Below, piece by piece: positions 4-58,051 of a DNA stretch of 64,000 nucleotides. The position numbers and the translations under genes were made by a program. The stretch is from Planctomycetota bacterium. Lineage in GTDB: Bacteria > Planctomycetota > PLA2 > JAEUHO01. The stretch is taken from positions 1-64,000 of the forward strand of contig CBDCWP010000007.1 of NCBI GenBank assembly GCA_965223505.1. Reading direction: 5' to 3'. Position 1 is the first letter of the stretch, and each line of letters opens with the position of its first letter. The notes under the pieces are model-generated. The model was not told the DNA's origin, searched no databases, and worked only from the letters and a program-made list of their open reading frames with translations.

Positions 4-717
4 CTAGCGGGTCGCTCGCCAGCGGCGAGCAGCCGCGCCCCAGTCGATGTGCTTACAGAAGCGATCGACGTATGTGGCCTTGTCCGTGCGGTAGTCGACG
101 TAGAACGCGTGTTCGTACATGTCGACGAGCAACAGCGGCCGGCCGAACCACAACGGACCGACGTCGTGCGCGTCGGAGAGGACGTTGTACAGCCGGTCGT
201 TCAGCGGGTGCGCCGCCAGCATCGCCCATCCGCTGCATGAGAGCGCGCACGCTTCGAAGTCGGCCCGCCACCGATCCACCGAGCCGAAGCGGGCTTTCAG
301 CGCCGCAGTCAGGTCCTTCCCCGGTTCGCCTGCATCCGCACGCATGCCTTCGAAGTAGAGCTCGTGCAAGATCACCGAGTTGGCCTTCGCCGACTGGGTC
401 TTGCCCAGCGCGCGCCGCGCCGCGCGATCGGTCACGCCTTCGCCGCCGTAGAGCCGCTTCTCGATGCCCTCGAGCCCTTTCAGTGCACCGCCGTAGTGCT
501 TCGTGTGGTGCAGTCCGATCTGTTCCTTCGACAGGAATCCGGGCAGCGCCTCGTAGCGCAGGGGAACGAGTTCGCCCGATCGGAGTGCGGTCGTCGGCTC
601 GGCCTCCTCGGCGCGCGCGGCGCGCACGTCACCGAGCCAAGCGGCCGACGTTGCTGCAATGCCGGCGAGCGTGGCGCTGCCGATCAGGTCTCGTCGCGTG
701 AAGTTGCGTGCATCCAT
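4..717 (-). CDS. Fe/Mn superoxide dismutase family protein with Tat signal peptide
   Basis: Likely start MDARNFTRRDLIG (twin-arginine) at 717. SOD motifs LHHTKHYGG, LHELYF, FGSVDRW, SGWAML and DMYEHAFYVDY. The upstream part of the 542-aa track ORF is shadow of the + strand gene. Confidence 0.85.
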   Translation of the reverse strand: MDARNFTRRDLIGSATLAGIAATSAAWLGDVRAARAEEAEPTTALRSGELVPLRYEALPGFLSKEQIGLHHTKHYGGALKGLEGIEKRLYGGEGVTDRAARRALGKTQSAKANSVILHELYFEGMRADAGEPGKDLTAALKARFGSVDRWRADFEACALSCSGWAMLAAHPLNDRLYNVLSDAHDVGPLWFGRPLLLVDMYEHAFYVDYRTDKATYVDRFCKHIDWGAAARRWRATR

Positions 718-825
718 GGCGATCTCCTCGGCCCGAGCACACCACGGCCGCCGGCCGACGTCCTCTGACAAAGTCTTCAGGAACTCGTAAGGCCCGCCCG
801 GCTGCTCGCCGGGGAAGATGTGCAG

Positions 826-1935
826 ATGCAAGCGAACCGATACGTCTTCCGGATCACCGTCCTCGTACTTCTCGCGTCGTTGACGCCGGCGGCTGCCGAA
901 GAGCCGGCCGAGCCCGATCTCGCGACCGCCATCGCCGAGAGTCCTCTCGAGCTGTGGGAGGCGGTCACGCGCGGCGGGGCGCGAAACGGCGCGACGCTGC
1001 GCGCGGGTTTCGCGCTCGACACGAACGGCAGGCTCGTCCTGCGCATGCTCGTTCGCACTGTGAAGGACGAGGCGGAACGCTTCGAAGAGTGGCGCGGGCC
1101 GCTCTACGACCAGGTGTGGGCGCCCCGGCGCCGCGTCCTCGCGGACGGGGAGGAGATCGCGAACGCGAGGAGACTCGACGACCTCGTGCGCAAGAGCAAG
1201 CGCACGCTCAGCACCGCGGTGACCTCGTCGCGCGGCGTGCAACGTGAAGACGAGTCCTGGCCCGGCGTGCCCGTGTCCATCGAGCCGACACTTCGAGACG
1301 GCGAGGTGCGCACCGAGGCGATCGTGATCATCGACAGTCGGTACTACCGGGTCACCCAGATCCTCGACTCCGGCATCATCCTCTCGACGAAGCCCGCGGA
1401 GGAACCGGTGCGCATCGAAGCCGATCCGCCGCGCACGTTGCCCGAGCTCACCGTTCCCGACGGAATCTGGGTCAACGCCGGGGAGCCGCCGACGCTGGCG
1501 AGCTGGAAGGGGAGTCCCATCCTCGTCGCCGTCGCCGATCCGGGGTGAGACACCTGACACAACATCACGCCGAACCTGGTCAGGTGGCACAAGCAATACG
1601 CATCCGCTGGATTGAAGATCGTCGCCGTTCAAGGCGCGAAACCCCGCCTCTCCACGAAGGATCCGCAGGAGGAGATCCGCAAGACCAAGGAGTGGGTCGA
1701 GCGGAAGGACCCTCCGTTCCCCGTTCTCGTCGATCCGACCGCGGCCTACTACGACGCGATCGGCTTCCCCGCGGGACCGTACCCGGTTCTCGTCCTCGTC
1801 GATCCGAAAGGAATCGTCGTCTGGATGGGGGGGACCGGCATTCGCCGGGAAGCGGAGGTGTGTGACGGCGCGCTTGCGCGCCTCATGAGCGGAGCGAAGA
1901 AAAAAGCCGCTGGCTCGGACGCGCTGCCGCGCTGA
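826..1935 (+). CDS. Exported TlpA/thioredoxin-fold selenoprotein with UxxU active site (two in-frame TGA = Sec) and an N-terminal PepSY-like region
   Basis: Track ORFs 820-1548 and 1612-1935 are in the same frame. The joining sequence reads LASWKGSPILVAVADPG-TGA(1546)-DT-TGA(1555)-HNITPNLVRWHKQYASAGLKIVAV, followed by FPVLVDP and YPVLVLVDPKGIV, a TlpA-like fold with the TGAs at the CxxC position. Signal peptide at the N-terminus and a SECIS-like hairpin downstream. Start at ATG 826 or GTG 820. Confidence 0.85.
1569..1588 (+). promoter_or_regulatory. Bacterial SECIS element (Sec insertion hairpin)
   Basis: GCC-GA-ACCT-GGTC-AGGT-GGC begins 11 nt after the second TGA. It has the same GGUC apical loop, a bulged 5' arm and the same 11-nt offset as the E. 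coli fdhF SECIS. Confidence 0.75.
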
Positions 1936-1946
1936 TCCTTGGGCGC

Positions 1947-2633
1947 GTGCGCATCCTGGTGATCGAGGACGAGGAGAAGATCGCGGCGGCCCTTGCGGAG
2001 GGTCTCGCGTCGGCCGGTTACGACGTCGCGGTCGCGAACACGGGTGAGGACGGGTTCTTCCGTTTCGTCTCCCGGCCGTGCGATCTCGTCATTCTCGACT
2101 GGATGCTCCCGGGTCGCGACGGCATCGAGATCCTGGAGACCATCCGGAAGCAGGGACGCGACACGCCCGTGCTCCTGCTCACGGCGCGCGACGCGGTGGA
2201 GGACCGCGTGCGCGGTCTCGACGCCGGCGCGGACGACTACCTCGTCAAGCCGTTCGCGTTTCCCGAGCTCGAGGCGCGGGTTCGCGCCTTGCTGCGACGC
2301 GCGCCCGCCGACACGCAGCAACGCTTCGAGGTGGGCGACCTGCATCTCGACGTTGCGCGGCGCCGTGTGGAGCGCGACGGACGGCCGGTCACGTTGACGC
2401 TGCGCGAGTTCGACCTGCTGCACTATCTCATGCAGCACGCCGGGCACGTCGTCTCGCGGGAGATGCTCGCCAAGGACGTGTGGGAGGAGACCGCGCGGGC
2501 GACGCCGCTCGACAACGTCATCGACGTCCACATGGCCCGACTGCGCAAGAAGGTCGACACGGATCCCGACGCGCGCCTGATCGAGACCGTGCGCGGCGTT
2601 GGATTCGTGCTGCGCGCGGGAGACGACGTATGA
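1947..2633 (+). CDS. OmpR/CusR-family response regulator
   Basis: MRILVIEDE, LDWMLPG, LTARD and DDYLVKPF receiver motifs plus winged-helix IETVRGVGF. Confidence 0.95.
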   Translation: MRILVIEDEEKIAAALAEGLASAGYDVAVANTGEDGFFRFVSRPCDLVILDWMLPGRDGIEILETIRKQGRDTPVLLLTARDAVEDRVRGLDAGADDYLVKPFAFPELEARVRALLRRAPADTQQRFEVGDLHLDVARRRVERDGRPVTLTLREFDLLHYLMQHAGHVVSREMLAKDVWEETARATPLDNVIDVHMARLRKKVDTDPDARLIETVRGVGFVLRAGDDV

Positions 2634-3946
2634 GCCTCGTGCCGCGCAGCATTCGCTCCCGTTTGGCACTCGGCTACGCGGCGGCCGTGGCGGTTACGGT
2701 GCTCGTCTACGCCGGCGTCGTCTACGGGTTCACCCGATCGGCGCTGATCGACCGGCTCGACGCGGCCCTTCGAGACGACTTCGAGCGCGCGGAGCACGCG
2801 TTCGAGATCGACGTCACCGGTGCGCTCAGCTGGAAGGAGCCCGAGCGCTTGGGGCACCACGACACGGCGGAGGCGCCGTGGACGCAGGTCCTGCATCCGA
2901 AGGGCGGCCCAGGCCTGCTCCGTCCGTCGAACGCCGACGTCGGCGACGCGTCGTATCGGGTCTTCGAGGAGGACTACTTGATCGCGGGCGAGACGTACCG
3001 CATCCGCGTCGGCCGGTCCATGGCTCCGATGGAGGCGGAGTTGAGCGGCCTGCGCACGCTCCTGGCGTTGTGCCTGCTGCCGGTGGTCGGGTTCGCGTGG
3101 CTGGGCGGGCTCCTGCTCGCGCGGCGTGCGCTTCAGCCCGTCCAGGACATGACGGAGCGCGCCCGGCACATCGGCGCCGAACGCTTGTCCGAGCGACTGC
3201 CGGTCGCGAACCCCGACGACGAGCTCGGGCGTCTCGCGACGGTGTTCAACGCAGCGTTCGAGCGCATCGAGGCGGGGTTCGAGCGACTGCGTGGGTTCAC
3301 GTCGGATGCCGCGCACGAGCTTCGCACGCCGCTCGCGGCGCTTCGAACCGTGGGGGAGGTCGGACTGGGGTCGTCGCAGGACGTCGAAGCGCACCGCGAG
3401 GTGATCGCGAGCATGCTGGAAGAGACCGCACGGCTGACCCGCCTGGTCGACGAGCTGCTGGAGCTCTCACGGGGCGACGCAAGGATGGCGGGGATCGAGA
3501 AGGCGCCGGTCGACCTCGCGGAGCTGTCGCGTTCGGTTTGCGAGCAGCTCGAAGTGCTCGCGTCGGAACGCGGGCAGGAGCTGGTCGTCGAAGGCGGCGG
3601 GGCGACCGTGCCCGGCGACGCGAACATGCTTCGCAGAGCGGTCACGAATCTCGTCGACAACGCGATTCGACACGGGCCGACGTCGTCCACGGTCCGGGTG
3701 CGGGTCGAGGAAGCAGCTGCGGAGGCCGTGATCGTGGTGGCGGACGAGGGAACGCCGATCCCGGCGAACCATCGGGAACGGATCTTCGATCGCCTCTACC
3801 GCATCGACGCGGCGCGTGCCGGCGCCGGAACGGGGCTGGGCCTCTCGCTCGCGGCCCAGGCAATCGAGCTCCACGGCGGCCGCATCGAGATCGAAGCGCG
3901 CGCCGAGGGCAACGCGTTTCGCGTGACCCTGCCCCGCGGCGGGTGA
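2630..3946 (+). CDS. HAMP-domain sensor histidine kinase (CusS/heavy-metal-sensor-like)
   Basis: ATGA overlap with the regulator stop codon. Two TM helices, HAMP domain, H-box AHELRTPL, N-box NLVDNAIRH and G-box GTGLGL. Confidence 0.92.
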   Translation: MSLVPRSIRSRLALGYAAAVAVTVLVYAGVVYGFTRSALIDRLDAALRDDFERAEHAFEIDVTGALSWKEPERLGHHDTAEAPWTQVLHPKGGPGLLRPSNADVGDASYRVFEEDYLIAGETYRIRVGRSMAPMEAELSGLRTLLALCLLPVVGFAWLGGLLLARRALQPVQDMTERARHIGAERLSERLPVANPDDELGRLATVFNAAFERIEAGFERLRGFTSDAAHELRTPLAALRTVGEVGLGSSQDVEAHREVIASMLEETARLTRLVDELLELSRGDARMAGIEKAPVDLAELSRSVCEQLEVLASERGQELVVEGGGATVPGDANMLRRAVTNLVDNAIRHGPTSSTVRVRVEEAAAEAVIVVADEGTPIPANHRERIFDRLYRIDAARAGAGTGLGLSLAAQAIELHGGRIEIEARAEGNAFRVTLPRGG

Positions 3947-6063: not shown

Positions 6064-6648
6064 CTATGCGCCGCCACGCCGGCGAAGCGCCAGCTCGTAG
6101 GTCTTCTTGAAGCGCTCCTGCGCCCGGAGCCGCGCCCGCTGGGCCGCGGCCGCGGTGATGTCGAGCCGCTCGGCCGTCTCGTCGATCGAGAGGCCGCGGC
6201 AGATCGCCTCTACGAGCTCGCGGTCGCGCGCGGGAAGGAGCGCCAGCGCACTGGTCGCGATCTCGAGCCGGGCGCGTCGGTCGGCGAAGGTGGCGGGCCC
6301 CGTGAGCCGCGCCTCCGGATTCACGCCGGAGCCGCTGCCGGGATCGGTCGTGTCCCCGAACGTCACGCGCAGCATGGGACCCGCGTTGCGCTTGAGCGCG
6401 CGCCAGTACGCGGTTCGATTCGCGATGTGCTGGCGGCCGATCGCACGGATCCAGCCCATGAACGCGGCGTCGCCCAGGTATTCGAACCGGTCCGCCACCC
6501 GCAACGCGTGCAACGCGGCACCCTGGGCCAGGTCTTCGGCGCTCTCGTAGCGCAGCAGCCCGGACCCCTCGCGCCGCAGGTGGCGCACCAACTCCGCGTG
6601 ATGCCGCTCGAGCAGCTCAGCGAGACTGGGCTTGGAAGCCTCGGCCAC
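6064..6648 (-). CDS. ECF RNA polymerase sigma factor
   Basis: SAEDLAQ, FMGWIRAI and region 4 GLSIDETAERLDITAAAAQRARLRA. Confidence 0.85.
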   Translation of the reverse strand: MAEASKPSLAELLERHHAELVRHLRREGSGLLRYESAEDLAQGAALHALRVADRFEYLGDAAFMGWIRAIGRQHIANRTAYWRALKRNAGPMLRVTFGDTTDPGSGSGVNPEARLTGPATFADRRARLEIATSALALLPARDRELVEAICRGLSIDETAERLDITAAAAQRARLRAQERFKKTYELALRRRGGA

Positions 6649-6657
6649 GCCCGCCCG

Positions 6658-9645
6658 CTACTCGAGGTCCCGGCGGCGAAAGACGAGTCGGAAGCCGCAG
6701 TCACCGCCGGCGTGCTCGGGATCGCGAGGGTGTCGCGCCGTGGTCGAGAACTCCCACCCCCGGCCCCGCAGCACGGATCCCCCGGCGGCCATGCCGCTGA
6801 AGCCTCGGGTGCCATCCCAATCCATCCACTCGATCACGCTGCCGCACAGGTCGTAGACGCCGGCCGGCGACTCGTCGATTGGAAAGCTCATCACGGGGTC
6901 GTATCCGCGAAACTCGTGTGTGACGTGAAGCGAGCTCACCCACTTGGGCCGAAACACGTCGCCGTGGGCGAAGCCGGCGAACGAGTTCCCGTGCGCGGCC
7001 CCGCGATACTCCTCGTGGGTCGGGATGCGATACGGCCTGCCGTCGCGCGCTCCCCGCCAGGCCGCGTACGCCTTCGCGTCGGCCAGATCGAGTCCCCGCA
7101 CCGGACGGTCGGGTCGCCACGTCGGCGGAAGCTCGAAACGGCCGTGTTCGTTGCGAATCCAGTGTCCGCCGGAGGCGGTGTTGAGCTGGTCGTCGCGTGG
7201 GTAGCGGATGTACCGGCCCTCTTCGAGGGCCGCGTCGATCTCCGCGAGGACCGCGGGGTCGTTGAGGAATTCGAGATACTCGGCGTTCGTCACCTCCCGC
7301 TCCTGCATCCAAAACGCGTCTTCGTCCGTACCGCGGACCGAGATGTAGACGAATCCCGGCGGCGTGGTCCCGATCGGGAGGGGCTTCAAGTCGTACCACT
7401 CGTCCCATCCGCCGCGGATCTTGCGCTGCAGGATCTGGTCTTCGTATCCCTTCCTGCGAAGGAGGAAGACATAGCGTCCGGGTTCGAGCGGATACGCTTC
7501 CGTCGGCGTGATGCCGATCCGGCTGCCGGGAGACGCGAACAGCGGCACGGCGGTCGTTCGTACGACGAGGCCGACCGGAAGCTGCATCTCGCGAACCACA
7601 CCGTCCTGGTAGACGCGGGCGGGCACGTTACCGCGCTCGGCGACGGCGGCCGCCGAGAGCACCTCGATGGGGGGCCGGTTCCAGCGCACCTCGAACTCGC
7701 GATCGTCCCTTGCGAAGACGTAGCGATGGGGACCGGGCGCGTCGGGCGGTCTGCCGTCGAGCATCAGCCGAATGCGACGCTTCCCGATGGCGACGAGGCG
7801 GTCCCCCCGGCGCACCTCGCCGTGCGAATCGGCGGCGAGGAAGGTGGCCTCGATCGGATGCCCGAACACCTCCAGAATCTGATCGCCCTGACGTAGATCA
7901 CCCGCGCCGCGCACGACACGAAGCGTCCACGTTCCCGGCAGGACCGGCGTCTCGCCGCGCACCGGCACCGGGACCAGCCGCCGGTCCCCGCCCGGGTCGA
8001 GGTCCCGCTGCACGTCGTGACGAAACGCGTGCAGCTCGAAACCCGCGGGGGTCGTGGACGCCCTGATCGAGCCGGACTTCAACAGCGCGCCGGTGTACCG
8101 CCCGTCGGGATCGTACTTGGCGATCTCGGCGCGATAGCGACGCACCGCCGCCTCGTTGGCCTGCGTGCGTGCTTCCTCCATGCGCTCCAACCAGAGCCGA
8201 GCCGTCACCTCGTCGACGCCGGGGACGTCGCGATCCCGTTGCTGCGCCTGATGCAGCAGCTCCAACACCCGGCTGAACATCAGGTCGCGCTCGGTGCCGG
8301 CCTTCTCACCCCGGTCCGTCATATCTTCCAGCTGACGGTCCTGCTCTTCGGTGGTGTGTCTGGACTCGTACCGCAGGAGCAGCTCACGAAAGCCCTCGTC
8401 GTAGTCCTTGCTGTCGATGCGCGCTTCTCGATAGTCGGCCAGCACCCCGCGCGCCCGCTCGACGAGTTGCAGCGCCTCCTGCCTCCGCTCGGCAGCTCGT
8501 TGCGCGCTGCCGTAGATCAGCAGCGCCACGATGGTCAGGACCGCGACCAGCAGGCCGGATACGGCGGTCGCCGTCACGGGTCTGCGACGTGTCCACTTTC
8601 GCAGCCGGGTGATCGGACCCGGTGCTCGCGCTCGGACGGGGCGCGATCGCGAGAGCGCCTCGAGGTCGTCGGCGAACGCCGACATGTCGTCGTAGCGCGC
8701 CGACGGCTTCTTCTCCATGGCCTTGAGGACGACGAGGTCGGCGTCGCGCGGCACGGATGGGTTGAGTCGCGACGGCGGCACGGCGTCTTCCAGCAACACC
8801 TGGCGGAAGACGCCTTCCAGCGTCTTGCCACGGAAGGGCAGGCCGCCCGTCACGCACTCGTACGCCGTGATGCCGAGCAGGTACACGTCGGTGCGGGCGT
8901 CGACGTCGCCGCCCTTGATCTGCTCGGGCGCGGCGTAGAGCGGCGAGCCCGCGAAGCTCTTGGTGAGGCGGGTGGCTTCGAGGCCGGTCATGTGGGCGAT
9001 GCCGAAGTCCAACAGCACGGCCCGGTCGTCCGGCGTGATGAGCACGTTGCTCGGCTTGACGTCGCGATGGACGATGCCCTGCTTGTGCGCGTACGCGAGT
9101 GCCCGGGCGAGCTGGGCCATCCACTGAAACAGGCGGTGGATGGGGATCGCGGTTCCTTCCTCGCGCAGGATCTCGGCGAGGGACCTGCCCGGAACGAACT
9201 CCATCGCGATGAACTGAACGTCCTGGTCCTCGGCGAGCTCGTAGACGCTCACGACGGCGGGGTGACGCAGCTGCGCGATCGCGCGCGCTTCGCGGCGGAA
9301 GCGCCGCAGCATGGTCGCCGAGGCGCCGAGCTCCGGACGCACGATCTTCAGCGCCACGATTCGACCGAGCGCCTCTTGCTCGGCCAGGAACACCGTTCCC
9401 ATACCACCCGTTCCCAGGCGGCGAACGAGTCGATACCCGCCGAGCCGCTCGAAGGGGAGTTCACCGTCGGCGTCGGACGACGCGGCGACGTACTCGCGAT
9501 GAAGCGCGTGGACGAGCTCGCGCATCTCGGTATCGACGTCGGGGTAGCGTGCGAGATAGAGATCGGGTTCTTCGGGACAACCGTCGAGGCAGGTCGCCAG
9601 ATACGCGTCGTAGACGTCCGTTGGATCGCGCGGGTCGGCGGCCAT
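6658..9645 (-). CDS. Membrane Ser/Thr protein kinase with C-terminal formylglycine-generating-enzyme (FGE-sulfatase) domain
   Basis: Start MAADPRDP. Kinase motifs LGTGGMGTV, VALK, HRDVKPSN, DFG and APEQ. One TM helix. FGE motifs EVTNAEYLEF, YRIPTHEEY, GVYDLCGSVIEW and GFRLV. Confidence 0.9.
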   Translation of the reverse strand: MAADPRDPTDVYDAYLATCLDGCPEEPDLYLARYPDVDTEMRELVHALHREYVAASSDADGELPFERLGGYRLVRRLGTGGMGTVFLAEQEALGRIVALKIVRPELGASATMLRRFRREARAIAQLRHPAVVSVYELAEDQDVQFIAMEFVPGRSLAEILREEGTAIPIHRLFQWMAQLARALAYAHKQGIVHRDVKPSNVLITPDDRAVLLDFGIAHMTGLEATRLTKSFAGSPLYAAPEQIKGGDVDARTDVYLLGITAYECVTGGLPFRGKTLEGVFRQVLLEDAVPPSRLNPSVPRDADLVVLKAMEKKPSARYDDMSAFADDLEALSRSRPVRARAPGPITRLRKWTRRRPVTATAVSGLLVAVLTIVALLIYGSAQRAAERRQEALQLVERARGVLADYREARIDSKDYDEGFRELLLRYESRHTTEEQDRQLEDMTDRGEKAGTERDLMFSRVLELLHQAQQRDRDVPGVDEVTARLWLERMEEARTQANEAAVRRYRAEIAKYDPDGRYTGALLKSGSIRASTTPAGFELHAFRHDVQRDLDPGGDRRLVPVPVRGETPVLPGTWTLRVVRGAGDLRQGDQILEVFGHPIEATFLAADSHGEVRRGDRLVAIGKRRIRLMLDGRPPDAPGPHRYVFARDDREFEVRWNRPPIEVLSAAAVAERGNVPARVYQDGVVREMQLPVGLVVRTTAVPLFASPGSRIGITPTEAYPLEPGRYVFLLRRKGYEDQILQRKIRGGWDEWYDLKPLPIGTTPPGFVYISVRGTDEDAFWMQEREVTNAEYLEFLNDPAVLAEIDAALEEGRYIRYPRDDQLNTASGGHWIRNEHGRFELPPTWRPDRPVRGLDLADAKAYAAWRGARDGRPYRIPTHEEYRGAAHGNSFAGFAHGDVFRPKWVSSLHVTHEFRGYDPVMSFPIDESPAGVYDLCGSVIEWMDWDGTRGFSGMAAGGSVLRGRGWEFSTTARHPRDPEHAGGDCGFRLVFRRRDLE

Positions 9646-9879
9646 GCGAACAGGATATCGCATCCGCGACTGCCGGGCGGGGGACCCGGTCCGAACGCAA
9701 TGACCCGCCGTCCACGTCGAGCGGCCACGCCGCCGGCACAGCCGAGTGCACGGCAATTGCGGAAGAAACCGACGCCGCCAATCAAAGCTGCGGCAAGAAG
9801 CACAGCCGTGGGTCGAACTCGCGGATTGGCGGCGAAAAGTCACTCGCTCGTTTGCGCCCAGGGGTGTGGAATATACGAG

Positions 9880-12597
9880 ATGGCGCTGACCTCCACCTTC
9901 AGCCGCCGCGTGAGCGTGGCGGTCGCCGGATGCCTGGTCGCCGCCGCCGCCTGTGTCGCGTGGGAGCTCTTCACACCGGAGGAGTGGGAGGCACCCGCCG
10001 AGATACGCATCGGGACGGCACGCGAAGGCGGCGCCTACCTGCCGATCGGCAACGCCTTCAAGCCCATCCTCGAACGCGAGTTCGAGGGGTCGTCCGTCTC
10101 GGTGCACGCGACGGGCGGGAGCGTCGCGAATCGTCTGCTCCTCGAAGACGGGCTGCTCGAGCTCGCGATACTCCAGAGCGACGTCGAACCGAGCGACAAG
10201 GTTCGCATCGTTCGTCCATTGCACGACGAGTTCCTGCAAATCGTCGTGAACACCGATGCCATCGCCGACGCGAAGTCGATCGTGGACCTGAAAGGCACAC
10301 GCATCTCCGCCGGACCGAAGGGCAGCGGCTCGCGGCGCCTCGTCATGGATCTGCTCACGTGGTACGACGTCGAGCTCGAGCTCGACGATGTGGCCAGCCC
10401 CGCGGAAGAGCAACGGCGCCTCCTGGCCGGTGAGATCGCGGCGATCTGTCGCGTGGCCGGTAGTCCCGACAACTTGATCAAAGAAATTCTGGAAGACGAC
10501 CGGATGACCTTGATTCCGGTCGAGCCGGGAACGGATGACAAGGCGCCTCGGAGGCTCGACGCATTCGGCGGCCCCAATCTCTTCGAGCCGGTCGAGCTGC
10601 CGAATTCGTACAGGCGGCAACCTCCGGGTCTCTGGACCGTGAACGTCACGGCGCTCTTGGTGGCGCATGCCGATCTCGACGACGGCTTCGTCTACGCATT
10701 GGCGAAGCTCTCGAAGGACGATCTCGCCGAGATGCGCAAGGACAAGAGTGTGCGCGTCCATCTCGGCGAGCTGCGGCCTTGCGAGGACGACTACAGTCAT
10801 CCGTACCACCACGGCGCCAAGGCATTCCACGAAGGGCAAAGCGTGGCGCACTCGGACCTGCTGGCTTGTCTGATGCGCCTGGGGCTCGCGGCCGTGTTCG
10901 CTGTGCTCGCGGTGGTCCTCTTCACGCGCGAGTTCCGACGCGTGCGTCGCATGAAGGCGTACGAGCGTAGCGTACCGAAGGGCGACCTCGACCCGTCGAA
11001 ACCGTTCGACCTCTTTCTCTCTTACAGCTCGCGCAGCAAGCGGGCGCGCAACGCCGTGAGGGTCATCGCCGAGGAGTTCGAGCCCGAGGTGACGTGCTGG
11101 TACGCACCCCGCAATGTCGCCTTCGGCGACGAGTGGACGGAGGGCATCGCGAACGCCATCGCGAGAACGCAGCAGGCGCTCGTCTTGATGTTCACGAAGG
11201 AGGCGTGTCGATCGAAGCACATCGCGCGCGAGCTACGACTCGCCGACAAACGCGACCTTAGAATCCTGCCGTTCTGGATGGAAGATGCGGAACCGTCGGT
11301 CTCCGACAACAAGGTCATCTACACGCTCGCGGGCCTTCAGCGCATCGACGCGTCGGGCCCGCGTGACGTCGCCATCCGAGCCCTGCACGACGCCGTTCGA
11401 CGGCCCGCGTCTCACGAGGATCTGCTTCCCGACCCTGTGATCCTCAAACGTCGCTCGGCTCCTTGGATGGTAGGCGCAGCCGCCGTCCTGTTGCTCGCGC
11501 TGTTTCCGCTGTGGAAGCCGTGGACGAAAGACGCCGTCGTCGAGGCGCCGGGGCCCGCGTTGACAAAGCCGGAACGCGAACAGCTGCTTCTCGGACAGCT
11601 CATCTACGAGTGGGCGTTCGAGGGCCAGCGCCCGGGTGTCACGTACGAGGTCCGTCGTACGAACGGTCGCGAGACCGCCACCTCCGAACGAATCAGCGTG
11701 TCCGCCTTCGAGGAACGGGCGCTTCACGGGACGATCAAGTGGCAGGTGCGAGCATTCGTGCCGGGATCGGACGGCGAGGTCGTCGCCACCGCGTGGTCCA
11801 CGCCGTCTCGCGTCGAGTTCTACAAAGACACGCTGCAGAAGATACGGATGCGGGGCGAGGTCGTCGTCGCCATCAGTGACGTGGTGAATCGCAAGAGAGA
11901 GGCCAATCCGGAGCTCCGTCTCATCGATCTTGCACTCAACACGGATCCGAACGAGAAGGTCCTCGTGTTGTATGAAAGCCGGTCGTTCGCCGACCTGAGC
12001 GGTTTGTTCAAAGGAGACGAGGCAGCCGAATTCGACGTCATGGCCGCTCGAATCTCGATCCGCGAGGACCGTGTAACGGGGCCCAACGCGTGGCGCGTCG
12101 CGTTCACCGACCCGCTGGATCAGTATCCACAGGCGTTCGTGTACCTTCCCGACAAGCAGCTGTGTGTCGGCCCCAATGCGTCCGGGCCCTGCCGTGTCGG
12201 TGTCGTCGAGGGGACGACGAACGAGGCGTTCATGGACGAGCTCCTGGCGGCGCGGAAACCGGAAGGCGCCGAGGTGGTCACGTTCACGGGCAGGACCCAC
12301 GTATACAAGCGGATGTACAACGCGTTGCGCGCGGGAGAGCTGGACCTCTTGACGGTCGACCGACCGTTTGCCGTACAGCTGCAGAAGGAGGCTGCGCAGA
12401 AAGACGACGTGACGCTTGCCGTGAGCACCGTCGACCAAGTTCTGCCGAGTCCGCCGCGGGACGAGAGGATCGCGCTCGCGGTCAAGTCGGCCGATCAACG
12501 CCTTCGCGACCGACTCGACGCGGCACTGAAGGAGCATCGCGCCGAGATCGATCGGATGTTCGACGAGCTTCAGCCGCGACCGATGCTGATCGACTGA
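9880..12597 (+). CDS. Multidomain membrane protein: TAXI-type solute-binding domain - TM - TIR domain - TM - family 3 solute-binding domain
   Basis: TAXI motifs IGTAREGGAYLPIG, TGGSVAN, AILQSD and GPKGSGS. TIR motifs FDLFLSYSS, CWYAPRNVAFGDEWTEGIANAI and SKHIARELRLA. C-terminal ISIREDR...FTDP...VGVVEGTTNE...LRDRLDAAL. Confidence 0.8.
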   Translation: MALTSTFSRRVSVAVAGCLVAAAACVAWELFTPEEWEAPAEIRIGTAREGGAYLPIGNAFKPILEREFEGSSVSVHATGGSVANRLLLEDGLLELAILQSDVEPSDKVRIVRPLHDEFLQIVVNTDAIADAKSIVDLKGTRISAGPKGSGSRRLVMDLLTWYDVELELDDVASPAEEQRRLLAGEIAAICRVAGSPDNLIKEILEDDRMTLIPVEPGTDDKAPRRLDAFGGPNLFEPVELPNSYRRQPPGLWTVNVTALLVAHADLDDGFVYALAKLSKDDLAEMRKDKSVRVHLGELRPCEDDYSHPYHHGAKAFHEGQSVAHSDLLACLMRLGLAAVFAVLAVVLFTREFRRVRRMKAYERSVPKGDLDPSKPFDLFLSYSSRSKRARNAVRVIAEEFEPEVTCWYAPRNVAFGDEWTEGIANAIARTQQALVLMFTKEACRSKHIARELRLADKRDLRILPFWMEDAEPSVSDNKVIYTLAGLQRIDASGPRDVAIRALHDAVRRPASHEDLLPDPVILKRRSAPWMVGAAAVLLLALFPLWKPWTKDAVVEAPGPALTKPEREQLLLGQLIYEWAFEGQRPGVTYEVRRTNGRETATSERISVSAFEERALHGTIKWQVRAFVPGSDGEVVATAWSTPSRVEFYKDTLQKIRMRGEVVVAISDVVNRKREANPELRLIDLALNTDPNEKVLVLYESRSFADLSGLFKGDEAAEFDVMAARISIREDRVTGPNAWRVAFTDPLDQYPQAFVYLPDKQLCVGPNASGPCRVGVVEGTTNEAFMDELLAARKPEGAEVVTFTGRTHVYKRMYNALRAGELDLLTVDRPFAVQLQKEAAQKDDVTLAVSTVDQVLPSPPRDERIALAVKSADQRLRDRLDAALKEHRAEIDRMFDELQPRPMLID

Positions 12598-17393: not shown

Positions 17394-17470
17394 GGGCGTA
17401 TAGCTCAGTCGGCTAGAGCGCCGCCCTGATAAGGCGGAGGTCCCTGGTTCAAGTCCAGGTACGCCCACCA
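17394..17470 (+). tRNA. tRNA-Ile (GAT)
   Basis: GGGCGTA/TACGCCC acceptor stem, anticodon arm CCGCC-CTGATAA-GGCGG, GGTTCAAGTCC T-loop and encoded CCA. Confidence 0.97.
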
Positions 17471-17772
17471 CTCAGTTTCGTGGTCGTAATTGGACCAGGG
17501 ACCGGGTGGGGGTAGGTCGCGAGAGCGACCGTAGGGGGTCACAGGACCCCCTGAGAACGCTACCCCCATTGGGCAGCGCCGCAGGCGCCTGCCCTGGTTC
17601 AAGTCCAGGTACGCCCACCACTCAGTTTCGTGGTCGTAATTGGACCAGGGACCGGGTGGGGGTAGGTCGCGAGAGCGACCGTAGGGGGTCACAGGACCCC
17701 CTGAGAACGCTACCCCCATTGGGCAGCGCCGCAGGCGCCTGCCCTGGTTCAAGTCCAGGTACGCCCACCACT
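17442..17772 (+). repeat. 150-bp perfect tandem repeat (about 2.2 copies), each unit containing the tRNA-Ile 3' end
   Basis: CCCTGGTTCAAGTCCAGGTACGCCCACCACT occurs at 17442, 17592 and 17742. The intervening segments are identical. Confidence 0.95.
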
Positions 17773-17793
17773 TCCTATTCTTTGCGACCGACC

Positions 17794-17870
17794 GGGGGCT
17801 TAGCTCAGCTGGCTAGAGCGCCGGCTTTGCAAGCCGGAGGTCAGGGGTTCGAATCCCCTAGCCTCCACCA
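17794..17870 (+). tRNA. tRNA-Ala (TGC)
   Basis: GGGGGCT/AGCCTCC acceptor with G3:U70, anticodon arm CCGGC-TTTGCAA-GCCGG and encoded CCA. Confidence 0.97.
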
Positions 17871-49965: not shown

Positions 49966-50922
49966 CTACTCGTCGCCGGCTGGGATCGGCGAGATCAGCC
50001 GGAAGCCGGCGTGCGGGAGCTTCGTGTCCGGCACGAATCCGGTCCGGTGTCCAGACGCGAGCGCGCTCGGGCTGCCGCTCCAAGCCCCGCCGCGCATGAC
50101 GCGCGTAGGCGGGTCCAGCTCCTCGCCTTCGAGGTGGTCGCAGAGCTCCCAGACGTTGCCCGCCATGTCGTAGAGCCCCCACGCGTTGGGCGCGTAGCTC
50201 GCCACGTGGGCGCTCACCATGAACCCGTCGTCGCGCTGCCAGTGTCTTCGCTCGGCCGGCCACGAGGCCTTTGCGTAGCCCGAGATCCCGAAGACGGATT
50301 CCGATTTCGGATCGAGACCGTTGGCGTACTTCCAACCGTCCGCCGACACGTCGCCCCAGAAAAACCGCGTCGAGGTGCTCGCGCGACACGCTCGCTCCCA
50401 CTGGGCTTCGGTCGGCAGCCGGTAGGAACGCTTCGGGTCGCGGTCGGACACCCATCGGGCGAACACGCGTGCGTCCTGCCACGAAACGCGCACCACGGGC
50501 TGTTCGTCTTCGTCCAACGTGTATCCGTCGTGAAACGTCTTGCTGTCGTGGGTGGGGCGCATGCGCCGGAACTGGGCGTTCGTGACTTCCGTGGCCTGCA
50601 TGTAGAACGGTCGTTCGATCGTGACGTCGCGTTCGGGTGCGTCGCGACATCCGCCACCGGGATCACCCTTGGGCAGTCCCATGCGAAACGAGCCGGGAGG
50701 GATCAGGACGAAGCGCATGCCGAGGCTGTTTTCGAAGGACACGGGGACGCCGTACTGCTTGGCGGCCTCGAGCTGTGCGGGGGCCGGCTCGGGCCATGGC
50801 GGAGGGCGGGAGGGGCGCATGGCGGGCGTGGGCGGCGCGTGTCGTTGCTTCGGCTGTTCGTCGCCGCACGCTGCCAGCAGCGCGAGGAGTCCGAGGGCGG
50901 TGGCGACGCGTGTCCGGTTCAT
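49966..50922 (-). CDS. Formylglycine-generating-enzyme family lipoprotein
   Basis: Lipobox LAAC. NSLGMRFVLIPPGSFRMG, RLPTEAQWERACRA, PNAWGLYDMAGNVWE and GFRL. Confidence 0.9.
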   Translation of the reverse strand: MNRTRVATALGLLALLAACGDEQPKQRHAPPTPAMRPSRPPPWPEPAPAQLEAAKQYGVPVSFENSLGMRFVLIPPGSFRMGLPKGDPGGGCRDAPERDVTIERPFYMQATEVTNAQFRRMRPTHDSKTFHDGYTLDEDEQPVVRVSWQDARVFARWVSDRDPKRSYRLPTEAQWERACRASTSTRFFWGDVSADGWKYANGLDPKSESVFGISGYAKASWPAERRHWQRDDGFMVSAHVASYAPNAWGLYDMAGNVWELCDHLEGEELDPPTRVMRGGAWSGSPSALASGHRTGFVPDTKLPHAGFRLISPIPAGDE

Positions 50923-51009
50923 CGAGGGGGAGCATACCCTCGAGGCGGTGGCTTCTCTTGAGGGGTATTCGAACGCCTGATAGGGTCACCCGCCGCTACG
51001 GCGAAAATG

Positions 51010-51086
51010 GGGCGCATAGCTCAGCTGGCTAGAGCGCATGCTTCACACGCATGAGGTCACAGGTTCGAGTCCTGTTGCGCCCACCA
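51010..51086 (+). tRNA. tRNA-Val (CAC)
   Basis: GGGCGCA/TGCGCCC acceptor, anticodon arm CATGC-TTCACAC-GCATG and encoded CCA. Confidence 0.97.
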
Positions 51087-51089
51087 CGT

Positions 51090-51626
51090 TCATCGCTCGA
51101 AGAACCGGGCCCAACGGGCCTCTTGGAGTCGCCCGCAGCGCTTTTCTCTCGGCTGGTTCTGGGCAACGAAGTGCGGCGAAGAGCAGGTTCCGGACAGGAG
51201 CGGCACATCTGCGGCACGTTCCACGGCGCTGTGGAGGTCCCGCGAGCGCAAATGCGTGTAGTGCTTCATCGTCAACGAAATGTCGCTATGCCTCGCCAAC
51301 TCCTGCGCGGTCCGAGGATGCACGTCCGCCTGGGCGAGCCGCGTCACGAAGCTGTGTCGCAGCGCATGGCGATCCAGAACACGCCCTTCCTCGTCCTCGT
51401 GCGGGATCTTCGCGTAGTCGATGTCTCGTCGAAAGCACCGATGGGAAGGGAACAGGCGTGCAGGGATGACAGGATCCTTCGCGCCATCCGGGTGCCCCTG
51501 CGCCCGAGTGGCGGCGCGGTAGGCCTTGAGTGCAGCAACAAGATCAGCGCGCAGGGGAATGCGCTGCTCGCGCCGGGACTTCGCGTGTCTGGCGATGATG
51601 CGTATCCGCGACTCCATCTTCCTCAA
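51090..51626 (-). pseudogene. Tyrosine recombinase/integrase, C-terminal fragment
   Basis: AKSRREQRIPL, HALRHSF and LARHSDISLTMKHY. N-terminal domains absent. Points toward tRNA-Val. Confidence 0.85.
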
Positions 51627-51949
51627 CTCGCTTGTGATACGCCTTGCTCAGACGGTAGTCACATGTCACCCCGAGCAACCTCGATAGTTTCGCGGCTCGG
51701 AGCCGCTTGCGAATGTCAACCATCAGCCTTGTCCGCAGCTCGTCCCAACGCGAAATGGACGGCCCCCGGGCGGGGACAAGCATGGCGCCCTTTCCCCGGC
51801 TGATCAGGCCGGCGCGGGGCCGTCCCCTACATCTTCTCCCGGGCGGTGGACAGGCCCTGCGTTGCTTGGAAGCCCTTTGCGCTGGCCCTGGTAGCGGCCA
51901 GTTGGCTACCCTTTCAGGCCTAGATGCTGCTGTGGGAGGTGAGCGTGAG

Positions 51950-52643
51950 GACAGTCTGGTGCGCATTGGTGGTTGTCGTAACGCTCGTCGTGTCAGCACC
52001 GCAGGTAACGACACCACGCAAAGGAGGAACGACGTGACCCACCACGAACAGCGTACGCCTTGGGGCGACGCACTGGAAGCGCTCAGCGAGAACGGGTTCG
52101 ACGGCATGGCTGAGGCGATGCGGGTGCTGGTGAACGAGGCCATGAAGGTCGAACGCAGTGCCTTCCTCGGCGCCGAGCCCCACGAACGCACGGATCAGCG
52201 CCGCGGCTACGCCAACGGCTTCAAGCGCAAGCGCGTCAGAACCCGCTTGGGCGAGATCGACGTCCAGGTGCCCCAGGTTCGCGACGTCGAGGGCGGCGAC
52301 ACGTTCTACCCCTCCAGCCTCGAACGCGGCCAGCGAAGCGAGAGAGCGCTCACGCTGGCCCTGGCGGAGATGTACGTCCAGGGCGTCTCGACGCGGCGTG
52401 TCGAGGCGATCACGAAGGTGCTTTGCAACGGCCTGGAGATCAGCTCCACGAGCGTGTCTCGAGCAGCTGCGCTGCTCGACGAGGAGCTCGAGCGCTGGCG
52501 CACACGTCCGCTCGGCGCGTTCAAGTACCTCGTACTCGACGCTCGCTACGAGAAGGTGCGCCACGGCGGATCGGTGCGCGACTGCGCTGTGCTGATCGCC
52601 ATCGGCGTCGATTCTCACGGCAAGCGCAGCGTGCTGGGAACGG
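51950..52643 (+). mobile_element. IS256-family element remnant (5' part of the transposase)
   Basis: GTG at 52034 after AGGAGG. RRGYANG, PQVRD, EMYVQGVSTRRV and LDARYEKVR, then similarity ends after KRSVLG. Left boundary is approximate. Confidence 0.85.
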
Positions 52644-53191
52644 CTGCAATCTCCGATGAGATCACGCTTGAGTTCGACGTTGACATCACTGAGAAGTTCG
52701 GCGGGTTCGTGGGCGGCCCTGACACCGCTACGCTCTCGATCACGTTCGACACCAGCATTGGGATCAGCATCGAATCAGACCCTGTCGGGACTCTGGCCCA
52801 GTACAAGGAGGCCGTTGCTGGAGACTCTATTGACTGGCTGATCACGTACGACGGTACGGATTACAGCCGCAATGCGACCGAACTTGCAGCGATTCAAGTT
52901 GAGAACGACAACCCGCTCGATGAGATCAAGCTGATCTCCGGAGAGGGTCTGCACATCAGCGTGAAGAACTTCGACGCCGATGCGATCAGTGGGATCGGGT
53001 TGCCTACAACGCTGGATACTGATGACTGGGCAACGACTTTCTTTGAGTTCGAACTCTTCAACGAGTCGGGCGTGGTGACGGATCGCATTCGGGGGACGCT
53101 CACCACGGTAATCCCCGAACCCACATCCCTCGCCCTCCTCGGCCTCGGCGTAGCCGGACTTGCGTGGCGGCGTGGGCGCGCGCGGGACTAG
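52644..53191 (+). pseudogene. PEP-CTERM protein lacking its own start/signal peptide, fused in frame to the IS256 fragment
   Basis: Acidic beta-rich body ending VIPEPTSLALLGLGVAGLAWRRGR. Confidence 0.8.
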
Positions 53192-53193
53192 AC

Positions 53194-53628
53194 ATGGCGA
53201 AGCAAGGTCCGAAGGGAATCCATTTCACTTCACTGCCTCTTACTGAGCCCCCGCCTCACTTCATTCCCGATCTAGTTGGCGTGTTCAAGGCGCACCGCAG
53301 TGAGATCTCAACGGAGGAACTAGAGAAGGGACTGACCAGCGATCAGGTGCTTGCAGTCCTGGGGGACGACCTACGCGAACTCGGGTTCGAGGTAGAGCGC
53401 AGCAAGGCCAAAGCTGACAAGATCGAGCGCCCCGTCTTCTTCGGTGAGGATGGGGTGCCCACACTTCGGTACGAGATCGACGCGTATCACGCTGACTGGC
53501 AATGCGCTCTCGAGGTAGAGGCCGGCCGCGCGTGGATGGGCAACGCTGTATATCGAGACCTCATCCAGGCGGCTGTGATGGTCGGCGTGAAGCACCTGTG
53601 CATCGGCGCTTGGACCTCGAACTTCTGA
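53194..53628 (+). pseudogene. Putative PD-(D/E)xK restriction-endonuclease-like protein truncated by an IS3 remnant
   Basis: EIDAYH...LEVEAGRA...N...RDL resembles a nuclease core. Sequence switches to IS3 orfB DNA at about 53604. Confidence 0.5.
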
Positions 53629-54379: not shown

Positions 54380-54382
54380 GAA

Positions 54383-55567: not shown

Positions 55568-55789
55568 ACGCGCCCCTCAACCCGTCAACTCCGCGACTGG
55601 CTGGCGGTACTAGAGAATTGGGAGCTAGCGTCCAAGTTCGCTAGGATGGTTTGCCGAAGCATGCGCTCGGAGGGTCGTTGATCTTCGCCGGGACTGGGCT
55701 TATCCCACACGCATGAGCTTCGCGCCCGGTGCCGCCCAACCTGCGGATTCCGGCGCCGCCCCGGCTACGCTGGCGTTTGGAGACCCAGC

Positions 55790-57886: not shown

Positions 57887-58051
57887 GCCTCGCTGGATAC
57901 CTGTTTTCCATTCACTCCGCGTGCATACTTCGTTGCCGGGACGACCGTCCTCAACCAGGCCGCGGAGCCCATACTTTGGGGCGCTCGGCGGAGTTCGCGA
58001 TGTCAGTCTACGCCTGTGGAAGACGCCGATCTCGGCGATCGCGAGGTCCGC

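What the first reader, a model, noticed from the sequence alone, without database searches (positions are those of the whole stretch)
826..1935. Hidden double-selenocysteine (UxxU) exported thioredoxin-fold protein split into two ORFs by gene callers
Seen: ORFs 820-1548 and 1612-1935 share a frame and are separated only by TGA(1546-1548)-GAC-ACC-TGA(1555-1557). Read through, the sequence is ...PTLASWKGSPILVAVADPG-U-D-T-U-HNITPNLVRWHKQYASAGLKIVAV...FPVLVDP...GPYPVLVLVDPKGIV. Known: this is the TlpA/redoxin pattern (beta strand, CxxC, helix, cis-Pro strand), and both TGAs fall exactly on the two Cys positions. UxxU motifs forming a diselenide are known from the rare SelL family. Inference: a 369-aa exported selenoprotein with a signal peptide and an extra N-terminal region of about 180 aa (PepSY-like by eye). 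That architecture differs from plain SelL and may be an undescribed diselenide oxidoreductase family. Two independent nonsense mutations landing on both catalytic positions is implausible.
Basis: partly seen in the sequence, partly recalled or inferred. Interest (0 to 1): 0.95.

Follow-up and report, generated by a model that had tools for sequence, protein, structure and literature searches.

The report
Split gene hides double-selenocysteine redox protein
Two stop-like TGA codons sit exactly on the two catalytic positions of an exported thioredoxin-like protein, so this is most likely one selenium-containing enzyme that gene finders cut in two: a rare form of a kind that is already known.

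Summary
TGA 1546-1548 and TGA 1555-1557 lie in the frame of ORF 826-1935. Read through, they give a 369-residue protein: signal peptide, a 180-residue N-terminal module, then a TlpA/ResA-like thioredoxin fold. Both TGAs fall on the two CxxC cysteines.

The strongest evidence is comparative. Sixteen divergent relatives (22-46% identity, separate 50% clusters) all end at the residue before the first TGA. Five full-length Cys-form relatives carry the same two parts as one chain. TGA is otherwise the normal stop here (18 of 31 genes).

I read it as a real selenoprotein gene (about 0.85). That both TGAs encode selenocysteine is less sure (about 0.6): one relative appears to be UxxC, and UGA-to-Cys tRNAs are known.

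Not shown:
- The downstream hairpin has the right shape (GGUC loop, 20 and 29 nt spacing) but is no better than chance.
- No selA/B/C/D lies in the window.
- The genome and the DNA of relatives could not be reached.

By domain and motif it belongs to the published "Prx-like thiol:disulfide oxidoreductase, UxxC/UxxU" selenoproteins. It is not SelL. What is new is the weakly PepSY-like N-terminal module and the position directly upstream of a response regulator and kinase, as in dbfQRS.

The parts
826..1935 (+). Whole gene: ATG 826 (alternative GTG 820) to the terminal TGA 1933-1935. It has 369 codons, including two in-frame UGA.
   Evidence: The stored gene call P0002 starts at ATG 826.
826..897 (+). 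Signal-peptide-like N-terminus: basic start, hydrophobic core, then Ala-Ala-Ala followed by Glu-Glu.
   Evidence: Read from the translation. Relatives have the same layout. AlphaFold places helix 2-21 here. No signal-peptide predictor was available.
898..1434 (+). N-terminal module of two alpha+beta units (two helices plus four strands each). It has no Pfam family and is weakly PepSY-like.
   Evidence: Model pLDDT 94.5. Pfam gives nothing in 21 of 22 members and a sub-threshold PepSY match in P0042. Best PDB fold match is 4exr, E 1.2e-3.
1438..1908 (+). TlpA/ResA/DsbE-like thioredoxin-fold domain.
   Evidence: Pfam AhpC-TSA 4.6e-12 and Redoxin 1.4e-8. ResA alignment. Foldseek hits DipZ-C, DsbE, ResA and TlpA at E 4e-8 to 3e-6.
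1546..1548 (+). First in-frame UGA, at the position of the N-terminal (nucleophilic) Cys of CxxC. Sixteen relatives end just before it.
1555..1557 (+). Second in-frame UGA, at the position of the resolving Cys of CxxC.
1569..1588 (+). Small hairpin with apical loop GGUC (1578-1581), 29 nt after UGA1 and 20 nt after UGA2. This is the candidate SECIS, and it is unproven.
   Evidence: The shape fits the published bacterial SECIS model. The energy (-5.7 bare, -7.2 to -7.4 with flanks) misses the -7.5 limit, and 164 of 400 control sites do better.
1551..1586 (+). Alternative longer hairpin (8+2 bp) whose 5' arm contains UGA2. It excludes the small hairpin.
   Evidence: -15.1 kcal/mol, matched or beaten by 4 of 200 shuffles. 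However, 1532 of 2000 real coding segments of the window fold at least as well.
1947..2633 (+). OmpR-type response regulator starting 12 nt after the stop. Probably in the same operon.
   Evidence: Pfam. The best NCBIfam model is the heavy-metal response regulator, 249 bits against a cutoff of 279. No terminator-like site lies between the genes on the + strand.
2630..3946 (+). Sensor histidine kinase (HAMP, HisKA, HATPase) overlapping the regulator's stop. About 105 residues lie between its two hydrophobic segments.
   Evidence: Pfam. The best NCBIfam model is the heavy-metal sensor kinase, 282 bits against a cutoff of 292.6.
4..726 (-). Divergently transcribed Fe/Mn superoxide dismutase with a twin-arginine (Tat-type) leader.
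   Evidence: Translation. Pfam Sod_Fe_C 5e-23 and Sod_Fe_N 8e-7.

Best explanation
One gene, 826-1935, encodes an exported selenoprotein. It consists of a cleavable signal peptide, an N-terminal module of two alpha+beta units, and a TlpA/ResA-type thioredoxin fold. In that fold the CxxC redox centre is written U-D-T-U.

Shown:
- The frame, the fold and the position of both UGAs on the catalytic residues.
- A diverged family keeps a stop at the first position.
- Cys forms of the family are single chains.

Inferred:
- SelB and tRNA-Sec recode both UGAs, using one hairpin just downstream. When the ribosome covers the 5' arm of the long hairpin, the small GGUC-loop hairpin can form, 20-29 nt away.
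- After Sec-dependent export, the protein acts outside the cytoplasm as a selenol/diselenide (or selenenylsulfide) oxidoreductase of the TlpA/ResA type.
- Because it sits directly upstream of a CusRS/HprRS-like regulator and kinase, and beside a Tat-exported superoxide dismutase, it probably belongs to an envelope oxidant or copper stress module.

My odds: real selenoprotein gene with Sec at the first position, about 0.85. Sec at both positions, about 0.6. A role in envelope redox stress, about 0.5.
For: - The frame and the TGAs are as described, and coding composition carries on across them.
- No usable start serves the downstream ORF. The only one is TTG 1612, with GGA directly abutting it.
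- Pfam AhpC-TSA scores 46.4 bits against a cutoff of 26, and the match spans both ORFs, residues 207-335.
- The ResA alignment puts both U on CEPC and aligns the cis-Pro strand.
- The AlphaFold model has pLDDT 89.4 and pTM 0.82. U243 and U246 sit at the start of the helix that follows strand 234-239.
- Fold matches are DipZ-C, DsbE, ResA and TlpA.
- The library search gave 428 hits at E<=1e-3. Among the best 150, sixteen proteins of 231-271 aa from separate 50% clusters match residues 11-242 and all end at ...PG, the residue before UGA1. Five full-length proteins (358-387 aa) and one N-terminally cut protein carry Cys there and continue into the redoxin domain.
- On a tree of the N-terminal parts, the stop-at-PG forms lie on both sides of the deepest split (15 and 2), with median end branches of 0.62 changes per site. 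The stop has therefore been kept over long divergence.
- CxxC relatives of the domain (P0024, P0028, P0029, P0065) share the helix motif after the centre and align Cys with both U. In all, 142 of 150 aligned stretches are Cys/Cys.
- TGA is the usual stop in the window, in 18 of 31 Pfam-supported genes, so the code is not reassigned.
- UXXU centres read from a single downstream SECIS have been proposed for other bacterial proteins (passages of PMC13582414).
Against: - No tRNA-Sec, selA, selB or selD lies in the 64 kb. The rest of the genome could not be reached.
- The RNA evidence is no better than chance. Model-conform hairpins at <=-7.5 follow 164 of 400 random sense codons in the window's genes.
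- The longer hairpin is matched or beaten by 1532 of 2000 real coding segments.
- Rfam gives no SECIS match.
- No DNA of any relative was available. It is therefore not shown that their stop is TGA, nor what they carry at the second position.
- One C-terminal fragment (P0023) begins M-C-H..., with Cys aligned to the second U. UxxU is thus not general in the family.
- tRNAs that read SECIS-linked UGA as Cys are reported to be enriched in UXXU genomes.
- The word-index searches found almost nothing.
- Raw reads could not be checked.
Confidence: 0.7

Rival explanations
1. A selenoprotein, but with only one selenocysteine. The first UGA is Sec, as in the rest of the family. The second UGA is read as Cys by a SECIS-dependent Cys-tRNA (tRNA-ReC/SelC*), or it is a very recent TGY-to-TGA change or base-call error in what is really a UxxC protein.
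For: - The fragment P0023 starts M-C-H-G..., with Cys at the second position.
- tRNA-ReC-like genes are reported in about 56% of UXXU genomes against about 2.3% of other Sec-type genomes (passage of PMC13582414).
- TGC or TGT becomes TGA in one step.
- Conservation of the second TGA in relatives could not be checked, because no DNA was available.
Against: - UxxU forms of this kind of protein are on record.
- A second UGA only 9 nt from the first lies within reach of the same hairpin: the spacing is 20 nt against an allowed 16-37.
- There is no sign of decay downstream.
Confidence: 0.2
2. Two separate products. A stand-alone periplasmic N-module protein ends at a true stop at 1546, and the downstream redoxin piece is a remnant or is made separately.
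For: - Gene callers give exactly this, here and in 16 relatives.
- Small PepSY proteins upstream of two-component systems exist as stand-alone regulators.
- No significant SECIS was found.
Against: - The upstream ORF runs 36 residues into the redoxin domain, whose Pfam match starts at residue 207. It stops exactly at the catalytic position, and it does so in all 16 relatives.
- The downstream piece lacks its first strands, its active site and a credible start, yet it keeps coding composition and a Pfam match.
- Cys forms are single chains.
Confidence: 0.05
3. A pseudogene: a former CxxC gene inactivated by two nonsense mutations.
For: - There are two in-frame stops.
- No Sec machinery is visible in the window.
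Against: - The chance of both hits landing on the two catalytic codons is about 1.8e-4.
- The same stop position is kept in 16 relatives at 22-46% identity, on both sides of the deepest split of the tree.
- There are no other stops or frameshifts, and GC3 is 0.81 downstream.
Confidence: 0.04
4. TGA is a sense codon genome-wide (code 4 or 25).
For: None, beyond the open frame.
Against: - 18 of 31 Pfam-supported genes in the window end in TGA, this gene included.
- The window is 67% G+C.
- Trp or Gly at both CxxC positions would destroy the centre.
Confidence: 0.01

Closest known systems
Prx-like thiol:disulfide oxidoreductase selenoproteins (PF00578; UxxC or UxxU; 1-2 Sec), as listed in the reviews PMC9312934 and PMC13188914 (tables read)
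   Same: - PF00578 domain above the Pfam cutoff.
- Sec at the first, and here also the second, position of the CxxC-equivalent centre.
- Cys-form homologues exist.
- The function is predicted, not tested.
   Different: - It carries a conserved 180-residue N-terminal module and a signal peptide.
- It sits in front of a response regulator and kinase.
- It reaches no curated NCBIfam selenoprotein model.
- I could not fetch the reviews' example protein to compare it directly.
SelL, the UxxU selenoprotein with a diselenide (Shchedrina et al. 2007; seen only as a reference entry; the paper is not held; details recalled)
   Same: - Thioredoxin-like fold with U-x-x-U in place of CxxC.
- From memory: bacterial SelL uses one in-frame SECIS for both UGAs.
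   Different: - The SelL-related NCBIfam model scores 12 bits against a cutoff of 120.
- SelL has no such N-terminal module and, from memory, is cytosolic.
- This protein has a signal peptide.
ResA / TlpA / DsbE (CcmG) / DipZ C-terminal domain: extracytoplasmic thiol-disulfide reductases
   Same: - They are the best sequence and fold matches.
- The CxxC position, the cis-Pro strand and the extracytoplasmic location all agree.
   Different: - Sec replaces Cys at both positions.
- The ResA and TlpA NCBIfam cutoffs are far from met: 23 against 170, and 16 against 230.
- No cytochrome-maturation, Sco or CcdA/DsbD genes were seen among the 46 window ORFs scanned.
DbfQ of Vibrio cholerae and other small PepSY proteins encoded upstream of two-component systems (PMC12714742; abstract and passages read)
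   Same: - Gene order: exported protein, then response regulator, then histidine kinase.
- The exported protein is an alpha+beta module whose best, though weak, matches are PepSY proteins.
   Different: - DbfQ is a single 12 kDa PepSY domain with no redox domain.
- Here the PepSY assignment is weak.
- Binding to the kinase was not tested.

Membership tests
Prx-like thiol:disulfide oxidoreductase selenoprotein (PF00578, UxxC/UxxU) | AhpC-TSA (PF00578) domain | tested here: met
   46.4 bits against a gathering score of 26, residues 207-335.
Prx-like thiol:disulfide oxidoreductase selenoprotein (PF00578, UxxC/UxxU) | In-frame UGA at the first (and optionally the second) position of the CxxC-equivalent motif, with Cys in homologues | tested here: met
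   Of 150 aligned stretches, 142 are Cys/Cys.
Any bacterial selenoprotein | SECIS hairpin just downstream of UGA: loop of 3-9 nt with G in its first two positions, stem of at least 4 bp, 16-37 nt spacing, MFE <= -7.5 (model quoted) | tested here: inconclusive
   The shape and spacing are met by hairpin 1569-1588 (loop GGUC; 29 and 20 nt). The energy is not met: -5.7 bare, -7.2 to -7.4 with flanks. Controls pass at 164 of 400 sites. No covariation test was possible.
Any bacterial selenoprotein | selA, selB, selD and tRNA-Sec in the genome | not testable with these tools
   None lies in the 64 kb window.
Any bacterial selenoprotein | The UGA position is conserved among orthologues | tested here: met
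   Sixteen relatives end at the residue before UGA1, and they lie on both sides of the deepest tree split. That their stop codon is TGA is inferred, because no DNA was available.
SelL / SelL-related redox protein (NF040769) | Match to the family model | tested here: not met
   12 bits against a cutoff of 120, E 0.12.
ResA / TlpA equivalogs (NF002854, NF047696) | Match to the family model | tested here: not met
   23.4 against 170 and 16.2 against 230. The fold class is shared.
WAxxUGC-motif ResA-like selenoprotein (NF041054) | Match to the model and a UGC motif | tested here: not met
   19.3 bits against 300. The motif here is U-D-T-U.
PepSY domain (PF03413) | Pfam match above the gathering score | tested here: not met
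   None of 22 family members reaches the cutoff. One (P0042) scores 18.8 bits against 24.
PepSY domain (PF03413) | PepSY-type fold | tested here: inconclusive
   The best PDB match is 4exr (E 1.2e-3, TM 0.41/0.46). YpmB and YpeB match at E 0.07. That 4exr is a two-PepSY protein is recalled, not tested.
dbfQRS-like module | Exported small-domain protein directly upstream of a response regulator and a histidine kinase | tested here: met
   Gene order 826-1935, 1947-2633, 2630-3946 on one strand, with no terminator-like site between them.
dbfQRS-like module | The exported protein binds the kinase's sensory domain | not tested
   The complex-prediction job was never accepted because the queue was full (and later).

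The most novel reading that the evidence does not exclude
The protein is a selenium-based redox co-sensor. A DbfQ-like periplasmic module docks on the sensory domain of the adjacent CusS/HprS-like kinase. It is fused to a U-x-x-U switch whose selenol/diselenide state reports oxidant or copper stress to the kinase. This would be the first selenoprotein to act as the input device of a two-component system. The sixteen or more 'truncated' relatives would then be a hidden family of such sensors.
Probability: 0.15. Interest if true: 0.85.

Novelty: new variant of a known kind. Interest (0 to 1): 0.55.

Why it matters
- Annotation. Gene callers cut this gene, and at least sixteen relatives, at the catalytic residue. 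The family is therefore recorded as 240-residue hypothetical proteins plus orphan redoxin fragments. No curated NCBIfam model would rescue it.
- Chemistry. Natural U-x-x-U centres are rare. An exported one in a TlpA-type fold would offer a second natural setting, besides SelL, in which to study a protein diselenide.
- Signalling. The position in front of a regulator and kinase, in the arrangement now known for DbfQ, gives a testable link between selenium redox chemistry and envelope signalling.

Tried and rejected
- Relatives' DNA. A tighter one was scanned and gave 17 pattern matches, none confirmed. The single protein gave 65 pattern matches, none confirmed.
- Word-index protein searches. 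The near search gave the window's own protein plus one weak hit. The search for shorter proteins with the C-terminal region gave only the window's own protein. The profile of A2 gave P0019 plus the window's own protein.
- Rfam. At gathering thresholds it found only three tRNAs. A relaxed search of 1480-1720 gave only a chance miRNA match.
- ESM Atlas. The N-module gave no usable hit. P0009 gave only leads below 0.9.
- A PDB profile search with the N-module found nothing below E 0.24.
- BLASTP of the two halves of the N-module against each other found no similarity. The 'two units' reading rests on the model alone.
- Codon hint. The Arg codon in the hairpin's 3' arm is AGG, which makes up 27 of 913 Arg codons in the window's genes. 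But this gene uses 4 AGR among its 33 Arg codons, so I give it no weight.
- A second in-frame TGA candidate at 53960 (minus strand) turned out to lie between pieces of an IS3-like transposase.
- The SelL paper is not held. Supplementary files of the selenoproteome papers are closed and may list members of this very family.
Full report
THE OBSERVATION

ORF 820-1548 and ORF 1612-1935 share a frame. The only interruptions are TGA 1546-1548 and TGA 1555-1557, two codons apart. The stored gene call for the upstream piece starts at ATG 826 (P0002, 240 aa). From there the read-through product has 369 residues, with the in-frame stops at codons 241 and 244. Elsewhere I count from GTG 820, which makes them U243 and U246. 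The gene ends at a third TGA, 1933-1935.

ONE GENE, NOT TWO

- Third-position G+C is 0.88 before the TGAs and 0.81 after them in the same frame. It is 0.78 in the 54 bases 1558-1611, which belong to no standard ORF.
- Of 107 in-frame TGAs in the window with open flanks, only three have coding-like composition on both sides. They are these two and one that is antisense to the kinase gene.
- The Pfam AhpC-TSA match (46.4 bits, cutoff 26) covers residues 207-335, so it begins 36 residues before the first TGA and continues after the second.
- A sequence search of the PDB finds ResA. Its alignment places both U on the CEPC cysteines and aligns the cis-proline strand.
- An AlphaFold model built on 27 family sequences is confident (pLDDT 89.4, pTM 0.82). 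It puts U243 and U246 at the start of the helix that follows strand 234-239, the classical CxxC site.
- Its best structural matches are the extracytoplasmic reductases DipZ-C, DsbE, ResA and TlpA, at E 4e-8 to 3e-6.
- The downstream ORF has no credible start of its own.
- No terminator-like site separates the pieces on the + strand.

THE FAMILY

A full HMMER pass over 1.84 billion cluster representatives gave 428 hits at E<=1e-3. Among the best 150:
- Sixteen proteins of 231-271 residues, each standing for a different 50% cluster and 22-46% identical to the query, match residues 11-242. Every one ends at ...PG, the residue before the first TGA.
- Five full-length proteins of 358-387 residues, and one N-terminally cut protein, carry the same N-terminal module and the redoxin domain as a single chain. 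They have Cys at the first position: a C-E-x-E-C centre in five, and C-E-S-T in one.
- Short proteins (P0013, P0023, P0053, P0116, P0148) match only the part after the centre.

[quoted passage not shown] The Cys forms make one group (support 85/62), and the median end branch is 0.62 changes per site. In that tree, four of the five Cys rows were simply cut at residue 250. A stop kept at one codon through this much divergence is the signature of a Sec codon, not of decay.

More distant CxxC redoxins share the helix motif that follows the centre and align Cys with both U. Of 175 aligned stretches from 151 proteins, 150 cover these positions, and 142 of those are Cys/Cys. The query carried C for U.

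TGA is not reassigned here: 18 of 31 Pfam-supported genes in the window end in TGA.

WHAT IS NOT SHOWN

1. The Sec machinery. The window has three tRNAs, none of them tRNA-Sec, and no selA, selB or selD among the 46 ORFs scanned. Neither scan of genome contigs found the genome or any relative.

2. The SECIS. The published consensus asks for four things: a loop of 3-9 nt with G in its first two positions, an upper stem of at least 4 bp, 16-37 nt between the UGA and the loop, and an energy of -7.5 kcal/mol or lower (legend read).
   - Hairpin 1569-1588 has a GGUC loop, a 4-bp upper stem, a 2-nt bulge and 3 more pairs. It lies 29 nt after UGA1 and 20 nt after UGA2. Its energy is only -5.7 kcal/mol bare, or -7.2 to -7.4 with flanks.
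   - Model-conform hairpins at -7.5 or lower follow 164 of 400 random sense codons in this G+C-rich window.
   - A longer hairpin, 1551-1586, has UGA2 in its 5' arm. It looks unusual against shuffles (4 of 200), but 1532 of 2000 real coding segments of the window fold at least as well.
   - A suitable hairpin therefore exists, but it adds no statistical weight. Without DNA of relatives, no covariation test was possible.

3. The second Sec. P0023 starts M-C-H..., with Cys aligned to U246, so at least one relative is probably UxxC. A recent paper on UXXU hydrogenases proposes one SECIS for both UGAs. It also reports that tRNAs reading such UGAs as Cys are enriched in UXXU genomes (passages).

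THE REST OF THE PROTEIN AND ITS NEIGHBOURS

The N-terminus reads as a signal peptide, and relatives have the same layout. No predictor was available.

Residues 27-205 form a confident model (pLDDT 94.5) of two units, each with two helices and four strands. This module has no sequence-detectable family:
- Pfam finds nothing in 21 of 22 members, and a sub-threshold PepSY match in one.
- The best fold match is the lipoprotein 4exr (E 1.2e-3, TM 0.41/0.46). The PepSY proteins YpmB and YpeB match at E 0.07.
- PDB profile and Atlas searches gave nothing usable.

'PepSY-like' is therefore a weak lead.

Twelve bases downstream begins an OmpR-type regulator, followed by an overlapping sensor kinase. 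Their best NCBIfam models are the heavy-metal (CusRS/CopRS-type) pair, just under the cutoffs (249 against 279, and 282 against 293), with HprR next for the regulator. Upstream and divergent lies an Fe/Mn superoxide dismutase with a twin-arginine leader.

The order 'exported alpha+beta protein, regulator, kinase' is that of dbfQRS. There, a small PepSY protein binds the kinase's sensory domain, and PepSY genes are reported to lie next to two-component genes more than 60-fold more often than chance (abstract and passages of PMC12714742). HprSR-type systems are described as controlling periplasmic oxidised-protein repair under chlorine and copper stress (search listing only). I could not test binding, because the complex-prediction queue stayed full.

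MECHANISM

Shown: the gene structure, the fold, the catalytic placement of both UGAs, and family-wide retention of the first stop.

Inferred:
- SelB and tRNA-Sec insert Sec at both UGAs, using the small hairpin. That hairpin can only form once the ribosome has opened the 5' arm of the longer one.
- The protein is exported unfolded by the Sec pathway.
- The U-x-x-U centre cycles between selenol and diselenide, as TlpA/ResA centres cycle between thiol and disulfide.
- The gene is co-expressed with the regulator and kinase, as part of an envelope oxidant or copper response.

The electron donor is unknown. No CcdA/DsbD gene was seen among the ORFs scanned.

COMPARISON AND NOVELTY

Two reviews list 'Prx-like thiol:disulfide oxidoreductase' selenoproteins defined by PF00578 with UxxC or UxxU and 1-2 Sec (tables). 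The GOS survey reports UxxU variants and unnamed N-terminal fusions of Prx-like selenoproteins (passages). By that definition this protein is a member, so a double-Sec Prx-like protein is not new.

It is not SelL (12 bits against 120). It also reaches no curated NCBIfam selenoprotein, ResA or TlpA model.

No paper in the searchable library holds both 'PepSY' and 'selenocysteine', and the 2026 review does not contain 'PepSY', 'periplasm' or 'signal peptide'.

I rate it a new variant of a known kind. The reason is a conserved fusion of an uncharacterised exported module with a Sec-bearing TlpA-type domain, found here in the UxxU form and in a dbfQRS-like position.

VERDICT

The selenoprotein reading is well supported by comparative evidence, but it is unproven at the level of the SECIS, the Sec machinery and the second Sec. 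The claim of an undescribed family is overstated. Interest is 0.55.

Noticed in passing
window 17394-17870 (+): tRNA-Ile(GAT) and tRNA-Ala(TGC) lie 324 nt apart. This is the pair usual in rRNA operon spacers, but no rRNA was found anywhere in the window.
   Followed up: no
window 51707-54300: Mobile-element remnants. A Mutator-family transposase ORF (51707-53191, +) has a long reading frame that also ends in a PEP-CTERM match. IS3-like transposase pieces lie on the minus strand, separated by an in-frame TGA at 53960. These are transposase pieces, not a selenoprotein candidate.
   Followed up: partly
window 6658-12597: Two divergent large genes. On the minus strand is a Ser/Thr protein kinase fused to an FGE-sulfatase domain. 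On the plus strand is an NMT1_3 domain protein with a TIR domain. Their overlapping long ORFs are an effect of the high G+C content.
   Followed up: no
window 6064-6648 (-) and 49966-61086: An ECF sigma factor has as its best NCBIfam match, below the cutoff, a Planctomycetaceae-specific subfamily. There are also several sulfatase and FGE-sulfatase genes. Together these hint at a Planctomycetota-like organism, no more.
   Followed up: no
ESM Atlas clusters near P0009: In two clusters of DUF2092 proteins, commonest in Planctomycetota, only 10-15% of members carry AhpC-TSA. This could mark other N-module-plus-redoxin proteins that gene callers cut at a Sec codon. The scores are below 0.9, so it is only a lead.
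   Followed up: no
P0091 (library hit): A 374-residue protein consists of two tandem copies of an N-module like that of the Cys form P0042, with no redoxin domain. The module therefore also occurs on its own.
   Followed up: no
P0006, P0007, P0014, P0016, P0022: The full-length Cys forms have a five-residue C-E-x-E-C centre instead of CxxC. Their redoxin domains no longer reach Pfam thresholds: P0006, P0007 and P0014 give no family at all and P0016 gives AhpC-TSA at E 0.13 (P0022 was not scanned). This Cys branch is thus the more divergent one.
   Followed up: partly
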